Of a stretch of DNA of 64,000 nucleotides, positions 2,341 to 62,501 are shown in pieces. The notes below the pieces were generated by a model. It saw only the letters and a list, made by a program, of their open reading frames with translations, had not been told where the DNA came from and searched no databases. The DNA is from Torpedo marmorata (Eukaryota), in assembly GCA_977017645.1 (NCBI GenBank), contig OZ360223.1, forward strand, positions 209,436,001 to 209,500,000. The letters run 5' to 3'. Positions within the stretch are counted from its first letter, which is position 1. Each line of letters begins with the position of its first letter. The translations under genes and the position numbers were made by a program.

Positions 2341-2720
2341 TATATATAACATTGTTATTTAAAAGGATAGGGAGATGGGAGATGACACAGTTCAGCAATT
2401 TACGGTATTTAATAGTTTTTGCATAGAATACTAGTGTATGATGTACTGTGATATTTTTTGAGCAATCAGCATATTCATGCAACCAACACCACCCATCTTC
2501 ATGGACACCAGATGACTGAGAGTATATTGTATTAATAAACCAGTACCTTGGCTTCAGTTTATGTTTTACAAAAGGAATTTCATTATCAATATCTTTATTT
2601 AACTTGGAAAGAGTGGCCACTATCAATATTTGGATATCACAAGTCATTGTTGGCAGGTTGCCAACTGTTGCATGACCTTCAATTGCTAGCATCACAGATC
2701 CCAGCACCACGTATAATGTA

Positions 2721-3459
2721 AAACATGAAAATCTGTGGACACCGTGGTTGAAGTAAAAAATACAAATGCTGGAGAAACTCAGCAGGTCAAACAGTGTCTT
2801 TTATGTAGCAAAGGTAGAAATACATAACCGACGTTTCGGGCTTGAGCCCTTCATCAAAGCATGAGAAAATGCCGGCAGGTGTCCAAACAAAGGAGTGAGG
2901 GGGGAAGGGGGGGGGGTGGCAAAGGCAGGAGATGATAGGTGGAGAAAGGAGGGAGGGGACGGCAGCAAAGAGGGGGAGAAGGGATGGCTGGGTGGGTGGA
3001 GAAAAACAGGAAGGTCAGGTGAGGGGGGAGGGGAAGGAAACGACAAGCAGGTTTGGTGGAAAGCAGAAAAGTCAATGTTAATGCCATCTGGCTGGAGAGT
3101 GCCCAGACGGAAAATGTCTGGGCACTCTCCAGCCAGATGGCATTAACATTGACTTTTCTGCTTTCCACTGAACCTGCTTGTCATTCCCTTCCCCTCCCCC
3201 CTCACCTGTCCTTCCTGTTTTTTTTCCACCCACCCAGCCATCCCTCCTCCCCCTCTTTGCTGCTGTCCCCTCCCTCCTTTCTCCACCTGTCATCTCCTGC
3301 CTTTGCCACCCCCCCTTACTCTTTTGTTCGGACGCCTGCCGGCATTTTCTCATGCTTTGATGAAGGGCTCAAGCCTGAAACGTCGGTTATGTATTTCTAC
3401 CTTTGCTACATAAAATACACTGTTTGACCTGCTGAGTTTCTCCAGCATTTGTGTTTTTT
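2721..3459. mobile_element. Fold-back (inverted) Penelope-like pLTR-derived non-autonomous element
   Basis: ~355-bp inverted arms (2754-3108 and 3116-3460) around a 7-nt loop. 15-bp direct repeat accacgtataatgta at 2706-2720 and 3460-3474. Each arm carries ttgatgaagggctcaagccYgaaacgtc and the gacctgctgagtttctccagcatt end motif. Confidence 0.8.
2823..2863 (-). ncRNA. Minimal hammerhead-ribozyme-like motif (second copy on + strand at 3351-3391)
   Basis: uUGAUGA-a-GGGC-ucaa-GCCC-GAAAC-GUC: both core boxes and a perfect stem II. C3 is replaced by U, and stem I is not convincingly seen. Confidence 0.5.
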
Positions 3460-3849
3460 ACCACGTATAATGTACCCCCTCACTCAAAGATTCTGTGGCC
3501 AAGACTGGGAAGTTTATGGCAGGAGCTCTGTGGCAACCCCACACATTCCTTGCAGTTTCTCAGTATCCTCTACTTAAAGAAATTACATGTGACTTTGCCA
3601 AAGTGGTACACTTTGCTTCTCTTTGTCTTTAGTTCTATATTTTTGTTTAAGTAAGTGGAAAGGACAGTTTGAACTGTGAACAAAACCTTGTTTCGAATGA
3701 CCTGCTGGCCAGGAAAGCCTTTTCAAATTGCATTCATTTGGTAACTTTGAAAACTGCGAACAAATAAAACGTGGACTGTCACTGTAATTATAGGATTGGT
3801 GAACTAAATTATAGTTACCGGTATTTGCTATCTCCTGTTCTTTCAGCTG

Positions 3850-17819: not shown

Positions 17820-18187
17820 AGCCCCATTCACACTGGCACTTTATCACAGTAATTAACTGCCAATCTACCGGTTAACGTGTCAGTGTGAACGCTCGCGAAT
17901 CGGCACGCAGGCGTCAGATCACCCCGGGGATGGACCGCCTAGGTAGGGTGTATCATCCCCGGGGCGATCTGACGCCTGCGTGCCGGTTAGCCCAGTGTGA
18001 AAGGGACAGGGGGTACCATGGGACCAATTAGTGAGTATAGACGCCCCTCTTCCCTGGGATGCCTGGTGGTGAGTGTGAAAGGACGCAGAGAACCGGTTAA
18101 CAGTGGTGCAGTGTGAACGGCAAAAACGGCTTCTTTAACCGGTTCGTTGAACAGCCAATTTACTGGTTAGCCAGTGTGAAAAGGGCT
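17820..18187. mobile_element. PIF/Harbinger-type MITE
   Basis: TIRs agccccattcacactggc / gccagtgtgaaaagggct. 3-bp TSD TCT at 17817-17819 and 18188-18190. Internal hairpin at 17901-17985 and repeated agtgtgaa motifs. Confidence 0.8.
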
Positions 18188-31137: not shown

Positions 31138-31962
31138 CCGTATTTGACGGCATATAAGACCCCCCTTTTTTTCCAAAAAAAATCGCCTCAAAAACCACCT
31201 CGGGTCTTATACACGAAGGTGACATTTTGGTGCCGCCATTTTGGGCACCGAGTGGAGTCCAGGAAGCGGGCTCGCAGCTTCGCGGGCCACCTTCCCTTGG
31301 GTGGCCCGTGCTTTCCGGAGTCGCCGCCGTCGCTGCTCACTCTCTCCCTCCTCCCCGCTCACTCGCCCGCTCTCTCCCTCCCGTTCGCTCTCCCCGCCTG
31401 CCCGATCGCTCTCCCCGCCCGCTCGCTCTCCCCGCCCGCTCGCTCTCACCAACAGTGCTATGGGGGGAGCGCTGGGCCTCGATGATCAGCCTTTATTCGA
31501 TGAGCACGGACCCTCGAGCAAATTGAATGAGGCGCAGGGGCGGGTGGCAGTGAGCGAGCGGCCTGTCAAGCTCAGCTCAACAGGCTGCCCGCTCGCTCAC
31601 TGCCACCCGCCCCTCATTCAATCTGTTCGGGGGGCCGTGCGCGTCGAACAAAGGCTCAGCGTGGAGCCTGATCACCGAGGCCCAGCGCTCCCCTCAAAGC
31701 AAGCGATCAATTGTCTGCTCCCCGCGACAGTGGGCCTGGGCCCTGCCTGTTGTCCTGGCTTCTCTCCCTCCCACGCCCACAGGTCCCGGCACACCTGTCA
31801 ATCAATTAGCGTTTGGACGGTGGGGGGGAAGCAGCCTGAGCCTCGGCGTGTGGCGGGCAGGAGGACGTGTTGCTGCTGTGAAGGTAAATACACTAAAACA
31901 AATTTTTCCTGAAATCTCATGCTAAAAATTGAGGGGGGGGTTCTATATGCCGTCAAATATGG
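31138..31962. mobile_element. Non-autonomous pogo/Passer-related element, 825 bp, GC-rich
   Basis: TIRs ccgtatttgacggcatata / tatatgccgtcaaatatgg (1 mismatch). TA at 31136-31137 and 31963-31964. Internal inverted repeat ~31461-31693. Confidence 0.85.
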
Positions 31963-32299: not shown

Positions 32300-32415
32300 T
32301 CTTTGCTTATTCCTTGAAGAAGGGCTCAGGCCCAAAATGTCAGCAATATACCTTTATCTCCTATGGACGCTGCAAGACCGGCTGAGTTTCTCCAGCATTT
32401 CTGTGTGTTTTTATT
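32300..32415 (+). mobile_element. Penelope-like pLTR remnant with decayed hammerhead-like motif
   Basis: ttgaagaagggctcaggcccaaaatgtc...gaccggctgagtttctccagcatt. Confidence 0.6.
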
Positions 32416-32925
32416 AAAAGCTTAATCATCTGGTTAGAAGTTGAGCAATTCTGCGATCGTTGTCATAAATACAAGGTGGAAATACAGGTGAAGCTGGAAA
32501 TTAGAAATGAAAGCAGAAGATGCAGGACATACTCAACAGGTCGGGTGGCACCTGTGAAGAGAGAAACAACGCATGGTTCAAATTGGTGACCTTTGGTTCT
32601 AGTGAAAAATCACTGATCTGAAGCAATTACTTTGTCTCTCTTTCCACAGATACTGTTTGACCTGCTAAGTACTCCTAGTATTTATAGCTCCTTTAGCACT
32701 TAACCTGTAAAGAGGTCTTATCTTAAATTCTTACATTTGATTTTATAATCTAGAACTAGGTCTCCACGAGTGCCTTTTCTGGCACTCTTAGTTGGTACCC
32801 ACATTCAATTAACATGAAACCCAATTTGATGTTTCAATTATTTGAAGGAATTTTGACATTGATGCCAATTGGAAAGTTAAGGTAACTCACCAAGGGCGGC
32901 GCTTGAGGGCTAAATGGTTAACATA

Positions 32926-34221: not shown

Positions 34222-35188
34222 AAGAACATAGAACATTATAGCACAGTACAGGGCCTTTGGCACTCGATGTTGTGCTGACCTATATATTCCTACCAAAAAA
34301 AAAAAACCCTGCCTAGCTCATACCCCTGATGTCTCCCCTAAACTTTCCTCCTTCACTTTGTAGAGATGTCCCATGGTGTTTACTATTCTTGCCATGGGTA
34401 AAAGCCGCTGGCTGTCCACCTTATCCATGCCTCTCAGAATCTTGTAGACCTCTATTAAGTCTCCTCTCATCCTTCTTCTCTCCAAACAGAAAGGTCCCAG
34501 CTCTGTTAACCTTGCCTCACAAAACTTATTTTCCAATCCAGGCAACATCCTGGTAAATCTCCTCTGAACCCTCTCCATAATTTCCATATCCTTCCTGTAA
34601 TGAGGTGACCAGAATTGAACACAATACTCTAAGTGTGGTCTCATCAGAGATTTGTAGATTTGCAACATGACCTCTCCACTCTTGAACCTAACCCCCCTAC
34701 TAATTAAGCCCAGCATCCCATTGGCTTTCTTAACTATCCTATCAACCTGCACGGCAACCTTGAGATATGTATGGATTTGGACTCCAAGGTCCCTCTGTTC
34801 CTCCACACTGTTAAGTAACCGACCATTAACCCTGTACTCAGCCTTCTGGTTTGTCCTTCCAAAATGCATCACCTCACACTTATCCGGATTGAACTTCACC
34901 TGCCACTTTTCCGCCCAACTCAGCATCCTGTCTATATCCTCTGGCAACTTATGCAACCTTCAGCACTATCCACAATTCCTCTAACCTTCGTATCATTCAC
35001 AAACTTACTGTCCCATCCTTCCGCTTCTTCATCTAGGTCATTTATAAAAATTACAAAGAGCAGGGGTCCCAGAACAGATCCCTGCAGAACTCCACTAGTC
35101 ACTGATCTTCAGGAAGAATACTTTCCTTCCACTACTACTCTCCGCTTTCTACATGCAAGCCAATTTTTAATCCACACAGCCAAGGTTC
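34222..35188 (-). mobile_element. Young CR1 (HER1-like) LINE 3' fragment
   Basis: 212-aa RT C-terminal ORF (WAEKWQVKFNPDKCEVMHFGR...RPHLEYCVQFWSPHYRKD), very similar to 59200-60270; (tgttcta)n tail. Confidence 0.92.
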
Positions 35189-38100
35189 TATTTAATGCAC
35201 CAAGTAATGGAAACAAGGACTACATCTTTTGTTTCTGTCTATTGTTATTGCATAGTCTCAACAACAAAAGCTTATTAGGCAGAAAAAAATGGCCAACTCT
35301 CTCTTAATTGGATATGTCCCCTCATTCTCATCTTCACCACCCCATAGGAGATGCTATTCAAGAACCTTTGTCAAAAATTCATCTCTGCCTGCCAAAGGAA
35401 ATTAGGCAAACTTCTCCAAGTGGTCTCAATAATGAGATGAAATGAATGAAAGCCCTTATTCATAAAATTGACTGCAAAATTATCAGGAATCCAATCAGAT
35501 TGTAATCAGGTGCTCTTGGCTTAGCTTACTCTACTAAGAAACAATTTTGATGTGAAAACTATTTGCTGTTTTCTTCATTCATGGAAATAGCTTTCAATAA
35601 AATTGAATAAATGCACAGACCCATTGACAGGACTATTATTGGCGAACTGGAGAAGTTTATAGAACATGTTGGCCACCTGAATACTTTGAAAATATTTTAT
35701 TCGGATTAGAATCACAAAAGATGGCTATTCTAGAACCAAGGGAAAGAACCAAAGGGTTAGTTGACCAATTAAGAGACTGAACTATTGAGCTTTCATTTCA
35801 CAAAGTCTCATGCGCTTGTGTGTGAACTTTTAGTTGAAACCAATTAGGAAGAACCTGTCAAAAGGCATTAAGAATGTCTCTAAAAGGTTGATGCTGAATT
35901 GTGACATGTAACTCATCCAAATTTACAGCGCATCTTAGATCTGTTGGGCAGCCACATTTCTTGTGTTGTGTACAGGATAGGTAGGACCTTTACCAAGTAT
36001 AGCTTATCATCATAGCTTATCTATTCATCAAAAGTGTAAGAAAGGATAAAATGAAAAGGGACAAGCCTGAAAGTAACAAGAAAGCACCGTTTGGCAATGG
36101 ACCAATTAACAAATACATTCCAAAGAAGAATATAGCTTCTGAAAACATAATCTGTCTTTTCTTTTTGATTTATGCTGCTATTATTTTACTCTTAGTACAG
36201 TATCCCAACATTGTTGTTAGGTTAATCGTGTTTTGAAACAGCACACCCTTTCAAATGATGTACTGTGGTTAAAAATACTTATTGTCTACCATGGCACAGT
36301 CTTTACCAAATCAGTAGTGCCACCAAAGATGTAAGGAAACTGCTTCTGCAAATTCCACATCACTAGATTGCAAAGAATCACATTGTGAATCAAATACACG
36401 GTCAAACAATTCATTGCTCAGGTAACTCATTCATTACAGATTTCTGCTTGCAGTTAACTTTATTTCATTGAATGTCATTTTATAGGTCTAACAACACCAG
36501 AATGATTAAGTAGTATCTGTGCTAGACTCATTCCCTAATGTTTTATCTCAATGTTTTGTCCTCCATTCAACGTTGGATCATTCATCAGAGCATCAAACAA
36601 TCAGGCTAAAGTCAAATTTAAATAGGATTTAGTCTTTCTAAAAAAACTGTTGCCACATATATTTTAAAAATATTTAACAAACTTGAAAACTAAAATCCAT
36701 AGAATCCAAAGTGACAGGAGATTTCCTTAACATTCTCTTAATATGTTTGCCCTCAATAAAAAAAATCTTACATTGTGCAGCAGTGTGAATGCTGCAAGAG
36801 AATACACAATACACCGAGGTCTCCTGGGCACGTATTCAACAAAAACTACGGGTTACTTTCCAGACAGATTGTAATCAACTCAAAGATTTGCTCAGAGTCC
36901 TTTCAACACTGCTTAACAGAAAAGTGCAGTATTTGTGAGAAACTGGCTGGTGAACCACTTAAACACGATTCAGATAGGAACCTTTGAACAAATCATGGAG
37001 GGTAGCTGAGGCACCAGCCCAACCAACACAAGCCTCTATTTCTTCAATGCAAAATATCTTGTACTTGTGTTCCTCCAGAGCAAAAATTCAAATACTTACG
37101 GTACATGGATAAGGTGGGTATGAGAGAAAAAAAGTTCCTAGATTACTGAAATGTAGGAGTTATTCTAATTTATTTCACTCTTTGTCATTTTGTGTTGGCT
37201 CAAAACTTGGTGTCATCCTTTACTTTTCCATGTCTTTCACATAAACGGACTACGTATATAGTGAGACACGCAAAGACAATCAGAATGTTAGCAAGATAGA
37301 AACTGTGACAAGTCTCAAGACAAGAACAAAAGTATAAATGAGGCAAGACCACTATTTCAATATAAAGCACATCATGTAATATGCTGATCAAATCAAATCA
37401 TGATGTATGACATGATCAATTTATTTATTCTCTTTCATCAATATTATGGGTAAGGAAATAGGTTATATGGTAAATGAATTATTCTCCTTGTTTATGTCAC
37501 TGTAATCACAATTCCTTTTTTCTATATACATCATTATCCCTTCAACAAAAATGCTCCTTTATAACTCATTTCCTAGTTTCAAGATGACATTGCCCAGATT
37601 ACAGTACTTCTCTTCCCAAAGTATTTTGTTTCCGAATGTATATCTGCAGTAACTCTGCAAAGTGTACATAGCACTGGAATGCCATTTATATTTTCCAGAG
37701 AAGTTTGAGAAAATTGAACAATTACATGAAACATAAAATGAACAAGCCATCATTAATCAACCTTTCTTTTTACTATGCTTAGTTAAAAAAAACTTACCGG
37801 TAAACACTTTTCCAGGTCTGACCAAGAATGGTAGAATATGGGTTAAACCTCCAGGGAGATTTGTATCAGCTGCTCACAGGGGGAGACACTGACAATGAAA
37901 GACACTAAGAACTTACTCTGAGCAAAGGGGAAACTGCAAGTTGGTGACTTGCTGGAGAATTCAAGTGCCTGTTCCAGCAGTAAACACATAAATCTCAATT
38001 GAAAGAGATTTAGAACTTTATCAAGCAACTTCCTGATGAATAGTTCAGGAGCAGCCTGGTACTTTTAAAATTCCAACGCAATCGTGGGAAGGAAATAAAA

Positions 38101-43362: not shown

Positions 43363-43562
43363 CGGATTAAAATTGTTTGGAACAAACTACCAATGTATTA
43401 ATACATTTTGGATAAGTAAATAGAATTTAACTTGTAAACAGTTATTTTAATATCTCTGTAAAGGACAGTATGATTCCTGGAGGCAATAATAATGTGGGAA
43501 CCTGCAAGGGAAATGAAAAAATACAATGAAACCTGTGCACTTATACTTAGGTATGGTCTGAT

Positions 43563-43709
43563 CAATGGTTCTCAACCTTTTCTTTCCACTCACATACCAC
43601 CTTACTAACCACACAGCACTTATGGCATAGGATGCATAGGTGCTCTGTGGTTAGTAAGGGATTACCTAAGGTGGTATTTGAGTGGGAAAAAAAGGGTTGA
43701 GAACCACTG
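43563..43709. mobile_element. hAT (Charlie-like) MITE
   Basis: TIRs caatggttctcaacc / ggttgagaaccactg; palindromic body; degenerate TSD gtctgat/gtctaaat. Confidence 0.85.
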
Positions 43710-43914
43710 GTCTAAATACTGTGAAACATAGCAGCAAAGAGTTTGGATCTAAAAGAGAAATTATGTTCTAGATAAAATGAACAGAAAAGGTCACTGAAAA
43801 TCAGGATTGAGCGGAGTCAAGAATCTCATTGTCAAGAGCTGAACTGTTGTAATCATATCTCCATCAACCTTTGTTTTTTTTTTGGTTTTTGTGTTCTTCA
43901 TTTCAAACTCTTAC

Positions 43915-44107
43915 CTTCCACCCAAAGCTGCTCGATGTCAGTCTCAATGCTTGCAACTCTGAGGCCAACAGCAAAAGCTCCAAAGACCAAGAGACCAATG
44001 AAGAGGAACTTGCCACAGTGCCGCTGGATGCTGCAGCCCAGCCTGAAGAGCAGGGCCTGGAAATGGGCTCTCAGCCACAGTGGAGCCCTGCGCCCTTCTG
44101 CCTTACC
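43915..44107 (-). CDS. PTCH2: Patched homolog 2, coding exon 2 (193 nt, includes TM1)
   Basis: Acceptor ctctttttaccctag|GGT and donor GAA G|gtaaga. Translates [64 protein letters not shown], in frame with exon 1. The 193-nt length equals the conserved Patched exon 2. Confidence 0.95.
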
Positions 44108-57983: not shown

Positions 57984-60180
57984 GTGAGTGCAGAAAATAG
58001 GGTAGAAGGTCAAAAGCATGATGCTATGTGTTCTGAGTCTGTGAGGAAGGACAGGCAGGGGACAAAACATAAATATAGCCAATTAGAGGGTTTTAAATGT
58101 GTCTATTTCAACGCTAGGAGTATTAGGAATAAAGGGGATGAACTTAGAACATGGATCAGTACGTGGAACTATGATGTTGTGGCCGTTACAGAGACTTGGC
58201 TGGAGGAAGGGCAGGATTGGCTGATGCAGGTACTGGGATTTAGGTGTTTTAAAAGGAATAGGATGGGAGGTATGAGAGGGGGGAGAGTAGCATTACTGGT
58301 CAGGGATAGTATCACGGCTATAGAAAGGGAGGACGCTGCAGAGGGAGTGTTTACTGAGATGGTGTGGGTGGAAGTCATAAATAGGAAGGGAGCAATCACT
58401 GTACTAGGAATAGTCTATAGGCCCCCAAATAGCCCTCGGGACACTGAGGATCATATAAGCAGGCAGATTTTGGAATGGTGCGGGAAATACAGGGTTGTAG
58501 TTATGGGTGATTTCAACTTCCCTAATATTGACTGGCACTTCCTCACTGCAAGAGGTATAGATGGGGCTGAATTTGTCAGGAGTGTTCAAGAAGGATTCCT
58601 GACACAGAGAAAAGGACCTTGATCAGGGTGAGGTCAAAATAGAACAGGCGTGTGTGCTGGACAATGTGGAGATTAAGGAAGAGGAGGTGTTGGATCTTCT
58701 TAAAAACATCAAGATTGATAAGTCCCCGGGGCTGGACCCGATATACCCCAGGTTGCTGTGGGAAGTGAGGGAAGAGATAGCTGGAGCAGCAGCTATGATC
58801 TTTGAGTCCTCTTTAGCCACAGGGGTGGTGCCAGAGGATTGTAGAATGGCAAATGTAGTCCCCTTGTTTTGAAAAGGTAATAGGGAGAATCCTGGGAATT
58901 ATAGACCGGTGAGTCTTACGTCAGTGGTGTGCAAACTATTGGAGAGGATTCTTAAGGATAGGATCTATGAGCATTTGGAGAAGTACAGTCTACTCAAGGA
59001 TAGTCAGCATGGCTTTGTGAAGGGAAGGTCGTGCCTCACGAGCCTAATTGAATTTTTTGAGGAGGTAACAAAATAAATTTATGAGGGTAGGGCGGTAGAT
59101 GTCTATATGGATTTTAGTAAGGCATTTGACAAGGTCCCTGCATGAGAGACTCGTTCAGAAAGTCATGAGGCATGGGATCCATGGAACATTGGCTGTGTGG
59201 ATAAAAAATTGGCTTGCAGGTAGAAAGCAGAGAGTTGTAGTGGAAGGAAAGTATTCTGCCTGGAGGTTGGTGACTAGTAGGGTACCGTAAGGATCTGTTC
59301 TGGGACCCCTGCTCTTTGTGATTTTTATAAATAACCTGGATGAAGAGGCGGAATGATGGGTCAGTAAGTTAGCGGATGATACAAAGTTTGGAGGAGTTGT
59401 GGATGGAGCTGAAGGTTGTCGAAGGTTACAAGAGGATATAGACAGGATGCAGAGTTTGGCGGAGAAATGGCAGATGGAGTTCAATCTGGATAAGTGTGAG
59501 GTGATGCATTTTGGAAGGACAAACCAGAAGGCTGAGTACAGGGTTAATGGTCGGTTACTTAAGAGTGTGGATGAACAGAGGGACCTTGTGGTCCAAATCC
59601 ATACGTCCCTCAAGGTCGCCGCACAGGTTGATAGGATAGTTAAGAAGGCCTATGGGATGCTGGATTTCGTTAATAGGGGGATTAAGTTCAAGAGTAGAGA
59701 GGTTATATTGCAACTCTACAAATCTCTGGTGAGACCACACTTAGAGTATTGTGTTCAGTTCTGGTCACCTCATTATAGGAAGGATATGGAAGCTATGGAG
59801 AGGGTGCAGAGGAGATTTACCAGGATGTTACTTGGAGTGGAAAATAAGTCTTATGAGGCAAGGTTAGCAGAGCTGGGACTTTTCTCTTTGAAGCATAGAA
59901 GGATGAGAGGAGATTTAATAGAGGTCTACAAGATTATGAGAGGCATAGATAAGGTGGACAGCCAGCGTCTGTTTCCCAGGGCAGGAATAGCAAGCCAGAG
60001 GACATTTGTACAAAGGGAAGTTTAGGGGAGACATCAGGGGTGTTTTTAATGCAGAGAGTTGTGGGTGCCTGGAATGCCTTGCCAGGGATGGTGGTGGAGG
60101 CTGAAACATTAGGGGCATTTAAGAGACTCTTAGACAGGCACATGGATGGAATAAAAATAGAGGGTTATGGGGTAGGGAGG
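57984..60180 (+). pseudogene. CR1 ORF2 (APE endonuclease + reverse transcriptase), disrupted, with an internal deletion near 58605
   Basis: YFNARSIRNK, AVTETWL, YRPPN, MGDFNFPNIDW; KSPGLDPIYPRLL; NYRPVSLTS; ADDTK; stops and frameshifts. Confidence 0.9.
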
Positions 60181-61034: not shown

Positions 61035-62372
61035 TTAGAACCCTTCAAAATCACTTTCGCTATCATCGTCTGAGGCAAAGATCTCGGCAAGCACATCCGG
61101 GGTCTCACTGTTTAAACAGTCATCGTACGGGTCCCAGTCTGTATCTGATGAGGCGTCTTCAGCTTCGTCGTCAGTGTCCCACAATAAATCATCTTCCGTA
61201 CCATCAATTGCACAAGAGATACCGCACTTTTTAAACGATTTTATTATAGTCTCTACTTTCACTTTGTCCCATGCCTTGAGCACGAAGTCACACAGCACAT
61301 CAAGCGATGCAGCACGCATTGCCCCGCCTTTTGTAAATGATTTTTCTGCACTCGACATCCATGTATTCCACTCTTCACGCACGTGGTCTTTGAATGGCTT
61401 GTTCAAGCAGACATCGAGAGGTTGCAATATAGACGTCAAACCACCCGGGATAACCGCCATGTGAGTATTATGTTGTGCTAATGTACTTTTAGTCTTCTCA
61501 GTTAAGTGGCTACGAAACATATCCCAGACCAGCAAACTCCGTTCCTTGCGTAAACCGCCTGGCCGCCTGTTCCACACATTGTCTATCCATAGTTTTACAC
61601 CATTTTCATCCATCCATCCTTTTTCATGAAAATGTACAAAAATACCTGCAGGGAATTTTATTTTAGGTTTAAATTTGCGTTTGAAGATTACCATGGGTCT
61701 TAACTTTGTCCCGTCGGCCATGCACGATAACACCACGGTAAACCTGGTCCTTTCATGTCCTGTACTCCTCATTTGCACAGTTTTCACACCTTTCCATTCC
61801 ACTGTTCTATTGCCTATCATGTCAAAATTCATGGGGGTTTCGTCCATGTTTCCAATATTTGCCAATGCAAACTTGTGTTTCTTCCGGTTACGTAAAATAA
61901 ACTGGTGAAAACTTACAACTTTATGATCAAGATCTTTTGGTAGTTTCTGAGCAATTTTAGTTTTTTGTCGTAATACCAGATTTTTCCTGTTCATAAAACG
62001 GTTGCACCAGCCTACTGAAGCTTCAAAATCATTACTGAGTTCTGGGTGCGACTTTGCCCAGTTCAGTGCAAATGTCCTTATTTTATTTCGGGTGACTATG
62101 TAGCAATCTTGCCTCTGTTCACGTACCCATGCTGCTACATGATTTTCCAACTCTGGCCAACGAGTGATTCCTCTTCTCATGGAACATTGCCTTTTTGGTA
62201 TTTTTCTTAAAGTCTCTTCTTTCTTCCTCCAATCTCTTACCAACTTCTCATATATACCAAATTTTCTTGCAGCAGCACAGTTGTTGGTTTTCTTTGCCAT
62301 TTCTACTACTTTCAATTTAAAACTCGCCTCATACTTTCGTCGTTTCAATTGAGCCTTCAATGGAGCCTCCAT
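61035..62372 (-). CDS. pogo/Passer transposase, 445 aa from the first ATG (Brinker-type HTH + CENP-B HTH + DDE_1)
   Basis: KRRKYEASFKLKVV..NNCAAARKFGI..KLVRDWRK (BrkDBD-like); WPELENHVAAWV..FEASVGWCNRFMNR (CENP-B HTH); catalytic NMDETP, LVWDMFRSH, QPLDVCLNKPFK with 35 residues between D2 and D3; acidic tail; no stops; ATTAAA just downstream of the stop codon. Confidence 0.93.
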   Translation of the reverse strand: MEAPLKAQLKRRKYEASFKLKVVEMAKKTNNCAAARKFGIYEKLVRDWRKKEETLRKIPKRQCSMRRGITRWPELENHVAAWVREQRQDCYIVTRNKIRTFALNWAKSHPELSNDFEASVGWCNRFMNRKNLVLRQKTKIAQKLPKDLDHKVVSFHQFILRNRKKHKFALANIGNMDETPMNFDMIGNRTVEWKGVKTVQMRSTGHERTRFTVVLSCMADGTKLRPMVIFKRKFKPKIKFPAGIFVHFHEKGWMDENGVKLWIDNVWNRRPGGLRKERSLLVWDMFRSHLTEKTKSTLAQHNTHMAVIPGGLTSILQPLDVCLNKPFKDHVREEWNTWMSSAEKSFTKGGAMRAASLDVLCDFVLKAWDKVKVETIIKSFKKCGISCAIDGTEDDLLWDTDDEAEDASSDTDWDPYDDCLNSETPDVLAEIFASDDDSESDFEGF

Positions 62373-62394
62373 GATAACAATCACCTCCAGCCAA

Positions 62395-62501
62395 CGCCCA
62401 GCAGCTCAATGATCGCGATCGTTATGGGTCGACCTATACGCCGGTCACCGCCCAGCAGCTCAATGATCGCGATCGTTATGGGTCGACCTATACGCCGGTC
62501 A
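62395..62501. repeat. 54-bp tandem duplication upstream of the transposase ORF, each unit with a TIR-core motif
   Basis: cgcccagcagctcaatgatcgcgatcgttatgggtcgacctatacgccggtca at 62395 and 62449. Confidence 0.9.

What the first reader, a model, noticed from the sequence alone, without database searches (positions are those of the whole stretch)
2706..3474. Fold-back element with two opposed hammerhead-like motifs and a 15-bp TSD inside the PTCH2 intron
Seen: ~355-bp highly similar inverted arms around a 7-nt loop, bounded by a perfect 15-bp direct repeat. Each arm carries uUGAUGA-aGGGC-ucaa-GCCY-GAAAC-GUC, and there is no real ORF. Known: Penelope-like elements form inverted pLTR structures and carry minimal hammerhead ribozymes thought to act as dimers. 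Inference: a small non-autonomous, retrozyme-like unit that inserted in one event as a hairpin. Either strand's transcript contains one ribozyme motif plus its antisense. The left copy is in the PTCH2 sense orientation, so the pre-mRNA would carry a long dsRNA (ADAR/Dicer substrate) that sequesters the ribozyme.
Basis: partly seen in the sequence, partly recalled or inferred. Interest (0 to 1): 0.7.

Follow-up and report, generated by a model that had tools for sequence, protein, structure and literature searches.

The report
Head-to-head Penelope insertion in PTCH2 intron
This hairpin is real but ordinary: two cut-short ends of an abundant Penelope-type jumping gene sit back to back in a PTCH2 intron, and the one-long-end, one-short-end pattern in all 21 such insertions scored suggests that both cut DNA strands likely start copying the same RNA.

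Summary
Confirmed: inverted arms 330/345 identical, a 7-nt loop, a perfect 15-bp TSD, one minimal-hammerhead motif per arm, inside PTCH2 intron 2 with the left arm in sense. It is not a retrozyme. Each arm is the truncated 3' end of a Neptune-type Penelope-like element (PLE) with thousands of copies: the last endonuclease codons plus pLTR. The unexplained 32 bp beside the left TSD is the PLE 'tail'. The junction was found at no other locus. This layout is published (PMC3846280, PMC8557442), and this scan found it before on other DNA, in this genome too, with the same twin-priming idea. Tests here: 21 of 113 related loci carry an adjacent inverted piece. All 21 scorable units have one tailed and one tailless end, and 20 of 21 have a TSD (solo copies 10 of 64). 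Paired arms share subfamily alleles (6 of 47 discordant, 15.2 expected). Likely mechanism: both nicked strands prime reverse transcription at the two known start sites of one RNA. The hammerhead has U3 in place of C3 family-wide, has no Rfam hit and is predicted to be buried in the duplex. Expression and editing were not testable.

The parts
2706..2720 (.). left copy of the 15-bp target-site duplication; its last 3 nt also match the end of the element's tail
2721..2752 (-). PLE 3' 'tail' (stretch between the two RT start sites); on this arm only
   Evidence: its reverse complement follows the arm directly in many family copies
2753..3116 (-). left arm: 5'-truncated 3' end of a Neptune-type PLE (ORF end + pLTR), sense to PTCH2; family coordinates -8 to +387 with the tail
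2823..2863 (-). minimal type I hammerhead motif (core 2857-2830, predicted cut after 2830; U3 instead of C3; no helix III)
3109..3116 (.). head-to-head junction: 7-nt loop made of the left arm's extra family sequence, with 1 nt (3116) shared by both arms
3116..3461 (+). right arm: 5'-truncated, tailless 3' end of the same PLE family (0 to about +351/353); ORF stop at 3169-3171
3351..3391 (+). minimal type I hammerhead motif (core 3357-3384); one G-C to G-U change in helix II
3460..3474 (.). right copy of the TSD; its first 2 nt also match the element end
43910..44086 (-). host PTCH2 exon 2 (context only; the element lies in the following intron of about 51 kb, about 10 kb before exon 3)

Best explanation
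It is one insertion of a high-copy Neptune-type Penelope-like retroelement: two 5'-truncated copies of its 3' end joined head to head inside one 15-bp duplication, likely made when the two nicked target strands each primed reverse transcription of the same RNA. Shown: family identity, truncation, a tail on one arm only, the TSD, and the same one-tailed/one-tailless pattern in all 21 scorable units. Inferred: the element's GIY-YIG nuclease nicks both strands about 15 nt apart; one nick primes at the end of the tail (+387), the other at the internal start site (about +351); both cDNAs run toward the RNA's 5' end, stop 8 nt apart, and are joined through 1 nt of microhomology and filled in by host repair. 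The hammerheads are passengers of the pLTR. A transcript of either strand carries one motif, preceded by its own antisense, so the motif is predicted to be locked in duplex and unable to pair with a same-strand partner. The copy is dead and probably neutral.
For: Family: at least 2456 and 3742 first-look candidates. [quoted passage not shown] End rule: 15 of 15 units with both ends in view have one tailed and one tailless end. Five more whose ends I then fetched, and one extra unit found on the way, all fit. Independent choice of ends gives at most 0.5 per unit, about 1e-6 for 20 units without this locus; non-inverted copies are 45 tailed, 29 tailless, 1 between. TSD >=10 nt: 14 of 15 inverted units against 10 of 64 solos, mismatched-flank control 1 of 400, then 6 of 6. 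Tail-only inversions (L002, L008) stop at +361 and +354, next to the second start site. Paired arms agree at subfamily markers: 6 of 47 discordant against 15.2 for random partners; 2 of 30 against 7.9, P=0.002, at sites outside the queries. In vitro, an anole PLE protein cuts and extends both strands, starts at two sites that bound the tail and is predicted to be a dimer (PMC11167929).
Against: At this locus the arms disagree at 2 of 5 markers, though they share an allele seen in 1 of 51 unbiased copies. L055 (2 of 8) and L146 (2 of 4) also disagree, so some units may use two templates. Sequence cannot tell one RNA molecule from two RNAs of one source locus. For this locus a cDNA snap-back fits geometrically (tailed arm 8 nt longer, 1-nt microhomology). 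PMC11167929 saw no difference in start site between strands, does not discuss inverted products, and used a Poseidon-clade protein. L071 fits the rule only at its outer ends: its tailless end is a short restarted piece behind an internal tail. Loci were top hits to this locus's arms, not a random sample, and I chose the markers after seeing their frequencies. No empty allele was seen.
Confidence: 0.6

Rival explanations
1. Both strands prime, but on two separate RNA molecules (one per protein subunit), often from the same source locus; an asymmetric complex fixes one start site per side.
For: Explains the TSDs, the overlapping arms without strand displacement, and the discordant markers in L001, L055 and L146.
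Against: Needs an added asymmetry to give 21 of 21 mixed ends. Four units with 5-8 markers each show no discordance, one of them (L140) sharing six minor alleles. Tail-only arms stopping next to the second start site fit one RNA better.
Confidence: 0.2
2. Self-priming: a cDNA or an antisense RNA folds back and copies itself into a hairpin, which is then trimmed and integrated (the reading in PMC3846280; tail from endonuclease resolution in PMC8557442).
For: Predicts same-template arms. Fits this locus, L105 (-16/-16) and the other near-symmetric junctions.
Against: A copy cannot run beyond its template. In 12 of 21 units the tailless arm reaches further 5' while only the other arm has the tail (8 the reverse, 1 equal; my tally). 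In L002 and L008 the arms do not overlap at all. Rescue needs precise removal of one tail from either arm.
Confidence: 0.12
3. A non-autonomous retrozyme-like hairpin that transposes as a unit with the help of its ribozymes.
For: Two hammerhead motifs, no intact ORF, one TSD.
Against: The junction matched in full only here. The arms start inside the endonuclease ORF. Retrozymes are defined as same-strand tandem repeats (bioRxiv 10.64898/2026.07.22.740005). Ribozyme-dead mutants still insert in vitro (PMC11167929).
Confidence: 0.03
4. Two independent insertions at one site, a later local inversion, or an assembly artefact.
For: The arms differ at 15 sites and two indel tracts.
Against: One TSD bounds both 3' ends, and the layout recurs with TSDs in 20 of 21 units. 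An artefactual palindrome would have identical arms. Contigs of an independent run show element sequence beside both TSD copies, 21 and 26 nt, below the tool's 31-nt bridging rule, so a hint only.
Confidence: 0.05

Closest known systems
Inverted-pLTR insertions of endonuclease-positive PLEs (Adineta Pen2a_Av, PMC3846280; general scheme in Fig. 2 legend of PMC8557442)
   Same: Head-to-head 5'-truncated inverted copy, 30-40 bp tail on one end, whole unit inside one TSD.
   Different: Both arms here are short and nearly equal, with no intact ORF; TSDs are 10-16 bp in this family against 8-10 bp in the Adineta cases; those papers read the layout as self-priming or endonuclease resolution.
Opposite-strand dual minimal hammerheads 100-700 bp apart, attributed to truncated PLEs (PMC4209133)
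   Same: Minimal type I motif with an unpaired base before helix II and a palindromic 15.2-16.2 segment; two motifs about 500 bp apart on opposite strands.
   Different: U3 with G8 here, fixed in 121 of 122 aligned arms; that paper describes C3-G8 and a U3-A8 variant.
Anolis Poseidon (PAc) in vitro mechanism (PMC11167929)
   Same: Two 3' end points that bound a tail; both strands cut and extended.
   Different: Different PLE clade; inverted products and pairing of the two start sites within one event were not reported.
LINE-1 twin priming (recalled, from no call)
   Same: Both nicks prime on one RNA and give a 5' inversion with a TSD; L002 and L008 have this geometry.
   Different: In L1 the second primer anneals at variable internal sites and the arms do not overlap; here both start sites are fixed and the arms usually overlap.
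Animal non-LTR retrozymes (bioRxiv 10.64898/2026.07.22.740005)
   Same: PLE-derived, non-coding, type I hammerhead.
   Different: Retrozymes are same-strand tandem repeats; this is inverted and single.

Membership tests
EN+ Penelope-like element | RT followed by a C-terminal GIY-YIG endonuclease with two cysteines inside the core | tested here: met
   Family copy L010: YIDD, LIY-CxxC-YIG. Pfam RVT_1 E=7.8e-5 and GIY-YIG E=0.022, both under the curated cut-offs. Only the last 18 codons are at this locus.
EN+ Penelope-like element | 5' truncation, optional 30-40 bp tail, adjacent inverted copy, TSD | tested here: met
EN+ Penelope-like element | Full-length copy with direct pLTRs on both sides of the ORF | not tested
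Neptune clade | CX2-5CxxC linker before the endonuclease (absent in Penelope/Poseidon; shared with Nematis) | tested here: met
   CX4CxxC at residues 385-393 of the L010 frame; criterion from PMC8557442.
Neptune clade | RT phylogeny grouping with Neptune | not tested
Minimal type I hammerhead | Core boxes, helix II, helix I, palindromic 15.2-16.2 segment | tested here: met
   4-bp helix II and 6-bp helix I with one bulge can be drawn; the monomer prefers another fold by about 4 kcal/mol.
Minimal type I hammerhead | Canonical C3-G8 pair | tested here: not met
   U3 in both arms and in 121 of 122 aligned arms.
Minimal type I hammerhead | Rfam hammerhead model match | tested here: not met
   No hammerhead family at E<=10; the motif lacks helix III, so a miss is weak evidence.
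Minimal type I hammerhead | Self-cleavage as dimer or with PLE protein | not testable with these tools
   Bench assay needed.
Non-LTR retrozyme | Two or more same-strand tandem units, each with a hammerhead | tested here: not met
   One motif per strand; definition.
Non-LTR retrozyme | The unit recurs as such at other loci | tested here: not met
   Junction matched in full only here; 40 of 198 candidates scored.

The most novel reading that the evidence does not exclude
PLE inverted repeats and one-sided tails are the fossil of an obligate twin-priming step: one RNA is engaged at two fixed start sites 36 nt apart by the two target nicks, and, with the RNA left intact, both polymerases can copy the same stretch. 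That single step would explain head-to-head arms, the one-sided tail, tail-only inversions, near-equal truncation points, and why inverted units keep clean TSDs while most solo copies do not.
Probability: 0.5. Interest if true: 0.55.

Novelty: new member of a known kind. Interest (0 to 1): 0.3.

Why it matters
The locus itself is an ordinary dead insertion. Its value is as one data point in a natural series: how PLEs make their inverted ends is called undefined in PMC8557442, and the strict end pairing plus same-source arms give a prediction that the existing in vitro system can test directly. If about a fifth of this family's copies are fold-backs (21 of 113 in a biased sample), intronic ones would be a large source of long dsRNA in this genome, but nothing singles out the PTCH2 copy.

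Tried and rejected
Two different templates at this locus: seemed to show arms differing at family polymorphisms, but most of those alleles were inflated by using the arms as queries (0 to 1 of about 50 in unbiased copies), and the short C-run also differs between arms that agree at every marker (L103). I dropped that reading. Poseidon clade: my first label, dropped after the linker check. Truncation hot spot at -8: three other copies end there, but the junction query selected them, so not counted. Rfam miRNA/snoRNA hits are all below gathering score and reflect the hairpin. A 71-nt query from the common 3' end returned nothing because common words are skipped. No second copy of the left flank, hence no empty allele, in this assembly. 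Sequencing runs: no RNA holder listed, so expression, editing and small RNAs are open. The descriptor had a bug that missed the motif; fixed. L038 was left out of the end count because its right arm breaks at +117; one search fetched the wrong side of L150, repeated. A search for data on U3-G8 hammerheads found no paper.

Full report
Observation. The direct repeat 2706-2720 / 3460-3474 is exact. The arms align with 330 identities in 345 columns, 15 mismatches and 12 gap columns, around a 7-nt loop at 3109-3115. The minus-strand RNA folds into one long duplex (-683 kcal/mol, z -51). Hammerhead-like cores lie at 3357-3384 (+) and 2857-2830 (-). The window is G000:C22:209436001-209500000 of a 6.2-Gb assembly. 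Earlier scan notes call it a shark or ray; I did not test that. Patched exons lie on the minus strand at about 45910 and at 43910-44086 and about 7.7 kb left of the window. The genome's second paralog is closer to PTCH1, so the host gene is inferred to be PTCH2, the element is in intron 2, and the left arm is sense.

What it is. Each arm belongs to a very abundant repeat (2456 and 3742 first-look candidates, lower bounds). Other copies run further 5' by variable lengths into an ORF with RT and GIY-YIG motifs. The CX4CxxC linker places it with Neptune/Nematis by the criterion in PMC8557442; I ran no tree. The arms begin in the last 18 codons of that ORF. The 32 bp at 2721-2752 are the family's 3' tail. 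So both ends of the insertion are element 3' ends: tailed on the left (+387), tailless on the right (about +351). The junction matched in full only at this locus, 40 of 198 candidates being scored. It is therefore not a hairpin that moves as a unit.

The series. Five searches gave 145 loci, 113 after collapsing 32 that share flanks. They are best hits to parts of this locus, not a random sample. 21 of 113 have an adjacent head-to-head piece. Of these, 15 had both 3' ends in view, and all 15 had one tailed and one tailless end. I then fetched the missing ends. Five more units fit, one of them (L071) only at its outer ends; one (L038) is broken and unscorable; one extra small unit turned up and fits. 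That makes 21 of 21 scorable units, against at most 0.5 per unit for independent ends. TSDs of 10 nt or more bound 14 of the first 15 and 6 of the next 6, against 10 of 64 solo copies and 1 of 400 mismatched flank pairs. Junctions range from 1-3 nt overlaps to fillers of up to 53 nt. By my tally the tailless arm reaches further 5' in 12 units, the tailed arm in 8, and one is equal.

One template or two. My first reading, two templates, came from query bias. At ten markers chosen afterwards from allele frequency and linkage, paired arms disagree at 6 of 47 site comparisons in 8 units, against 15.2 for random partners; at sites outside the queries, 2 of 30 in 5 units against 7.9 (P=0.002; partner pools of 13-46). 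The arms still differ at 1.3-6.9% of positions, so later homogenisation is not an obvious cause. This locus alone is inconclusive: 2 of 5 markers disagree, one rare allele is shared.

Mechanism. PMC11167929 shows for a Poseidon-clade protein that both strands are cut and extended and that two RT start sites bound the tail. Joining that to the series gives twin priming on one RNA: staggered nicks, one primer at each start site, cDNAs joined at their ends, TSD on fill-in. The nicking, the use of one RNA and the joining are inferred. Two RNAs from one source (0.2) and self-priming with trimming (0.12) remain open; self-priming fits this locus but not the 12 units in which the tailless arm is the longer.

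Ribozyme and host. The motif has the layout of the PLE minimal hammerhead (PMC4209133) but U3 family-wide (121 of 122), no helix III, no Rfam hit, and a monomer fold that prefers a non-hammerhead form. In a head-to-head unit the antisense arm is transcribed before the motif on either strand, so burial is predicted. PLE minimal hammerheads cleave poorly and only as dimers (PMC4209133) or with protein (PMC11167929). A 350-bp intronic duplex is a plausible ADAR substrate from general knowledge; no RNA data were available to test it.

Comparison and novelty. The layout is in print: inverted pLTR, tail on one end and TSD (PMC3846280, PMC8557442), and opposite-strand hammerhead pairs (PMC4209133). 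I found no paper stating twin priming for PLEs in the searches; one search listed two papers holding the terms, seen as listings only, and subscription papers are not searched. This scan has reported the same layout and the same idea on other DNA, including this genome; these notes are not independent support, and two of them prompted my clade check. Papers seen: PMC11167929 parts 1-2 of 4 plus passages; PMC4209133 parts 1-2 of 4; PMC3846280 passages and Discussion; PMC8557442 passages; the bioRxiv retrozyme paper part 1 of 5 plus passages. No supplements or figures were read; Figs S1-S2 of PMC11167929 may bear on start-site pairing. L1 twin priming is recalled.

Verdict. A real but ordinary member of a known insertion type. 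The retrozyme reading is not supported. Modest interest comes from the family-wide end rule and the same-source arms, which make the PLE integration model testable.

Noticed in passing
L105 (G000:C45, about 89.489 Mb) and L146: Other near-symmetric fold-backs: both arms stop at -16 with a 14-nt filler (L105); +43/+6 (L146); L060 stops at -1186/-1236. Suggests both cDNAs sometimes stop at the same barrier.
   Followed up: partly
64 solo copies among L004-L155: Only 10 of 64 have a TSD of 10 nt or more, against 20 of 21 inverted units; solo 5' ends may be finished by resection and host repair.
   Followed up: partly
L020 846-907 and L102 555-614 (oriented coordinates): Short tandem re-copies of internal element sequence at the 5' junction (about five 30-35 bp units in L020, two in L102), like RT stuttering.
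   Followed up: no
L164:2817-3962 (L071): Complex unit: internal deletion in one arm, and a restarted 295-351 piece after the tail of the other, inside a 14-bp TSD; a second small inverted unit lies about 100 bp away.
   Followed up: partly
L040-L048 (C75); L070, L073-L079, L089-L092 (small contigs); L017-L019: Copies sharing the same flanks: the element was amplified inside larger segmental or tandem repeats.
   Followed up: no
window 3305-3320, family position about +195: An 8-11 nt deletion in the C-run recurs and separates arms that agree at all other markers, so it is a slippage hot spot, not a subfamily marker.
   Followed up: partly
L161:4591-5448: An insertion of about 860 bp splits the tailless arm of unit L143.
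   Followed up: no
window 61038-62405 (-): 456-aa open frame resembling a pogo/Tigger-type transposase (likeness recalled).
   Followed up: no
window 34322-35191 / 59181-60041; 31456-31701; 17895-17991; 43560-43712: An inverted pair of LINE-like fragments (87%) and three decayed palindromes, two of them also in PTCH2 intron 2: further possible dsRNA sources.
   Followed up: no
window 32376-32411 and 32652-32670: Short, older remnants of a related PLE 3' end.
   Followed up: no
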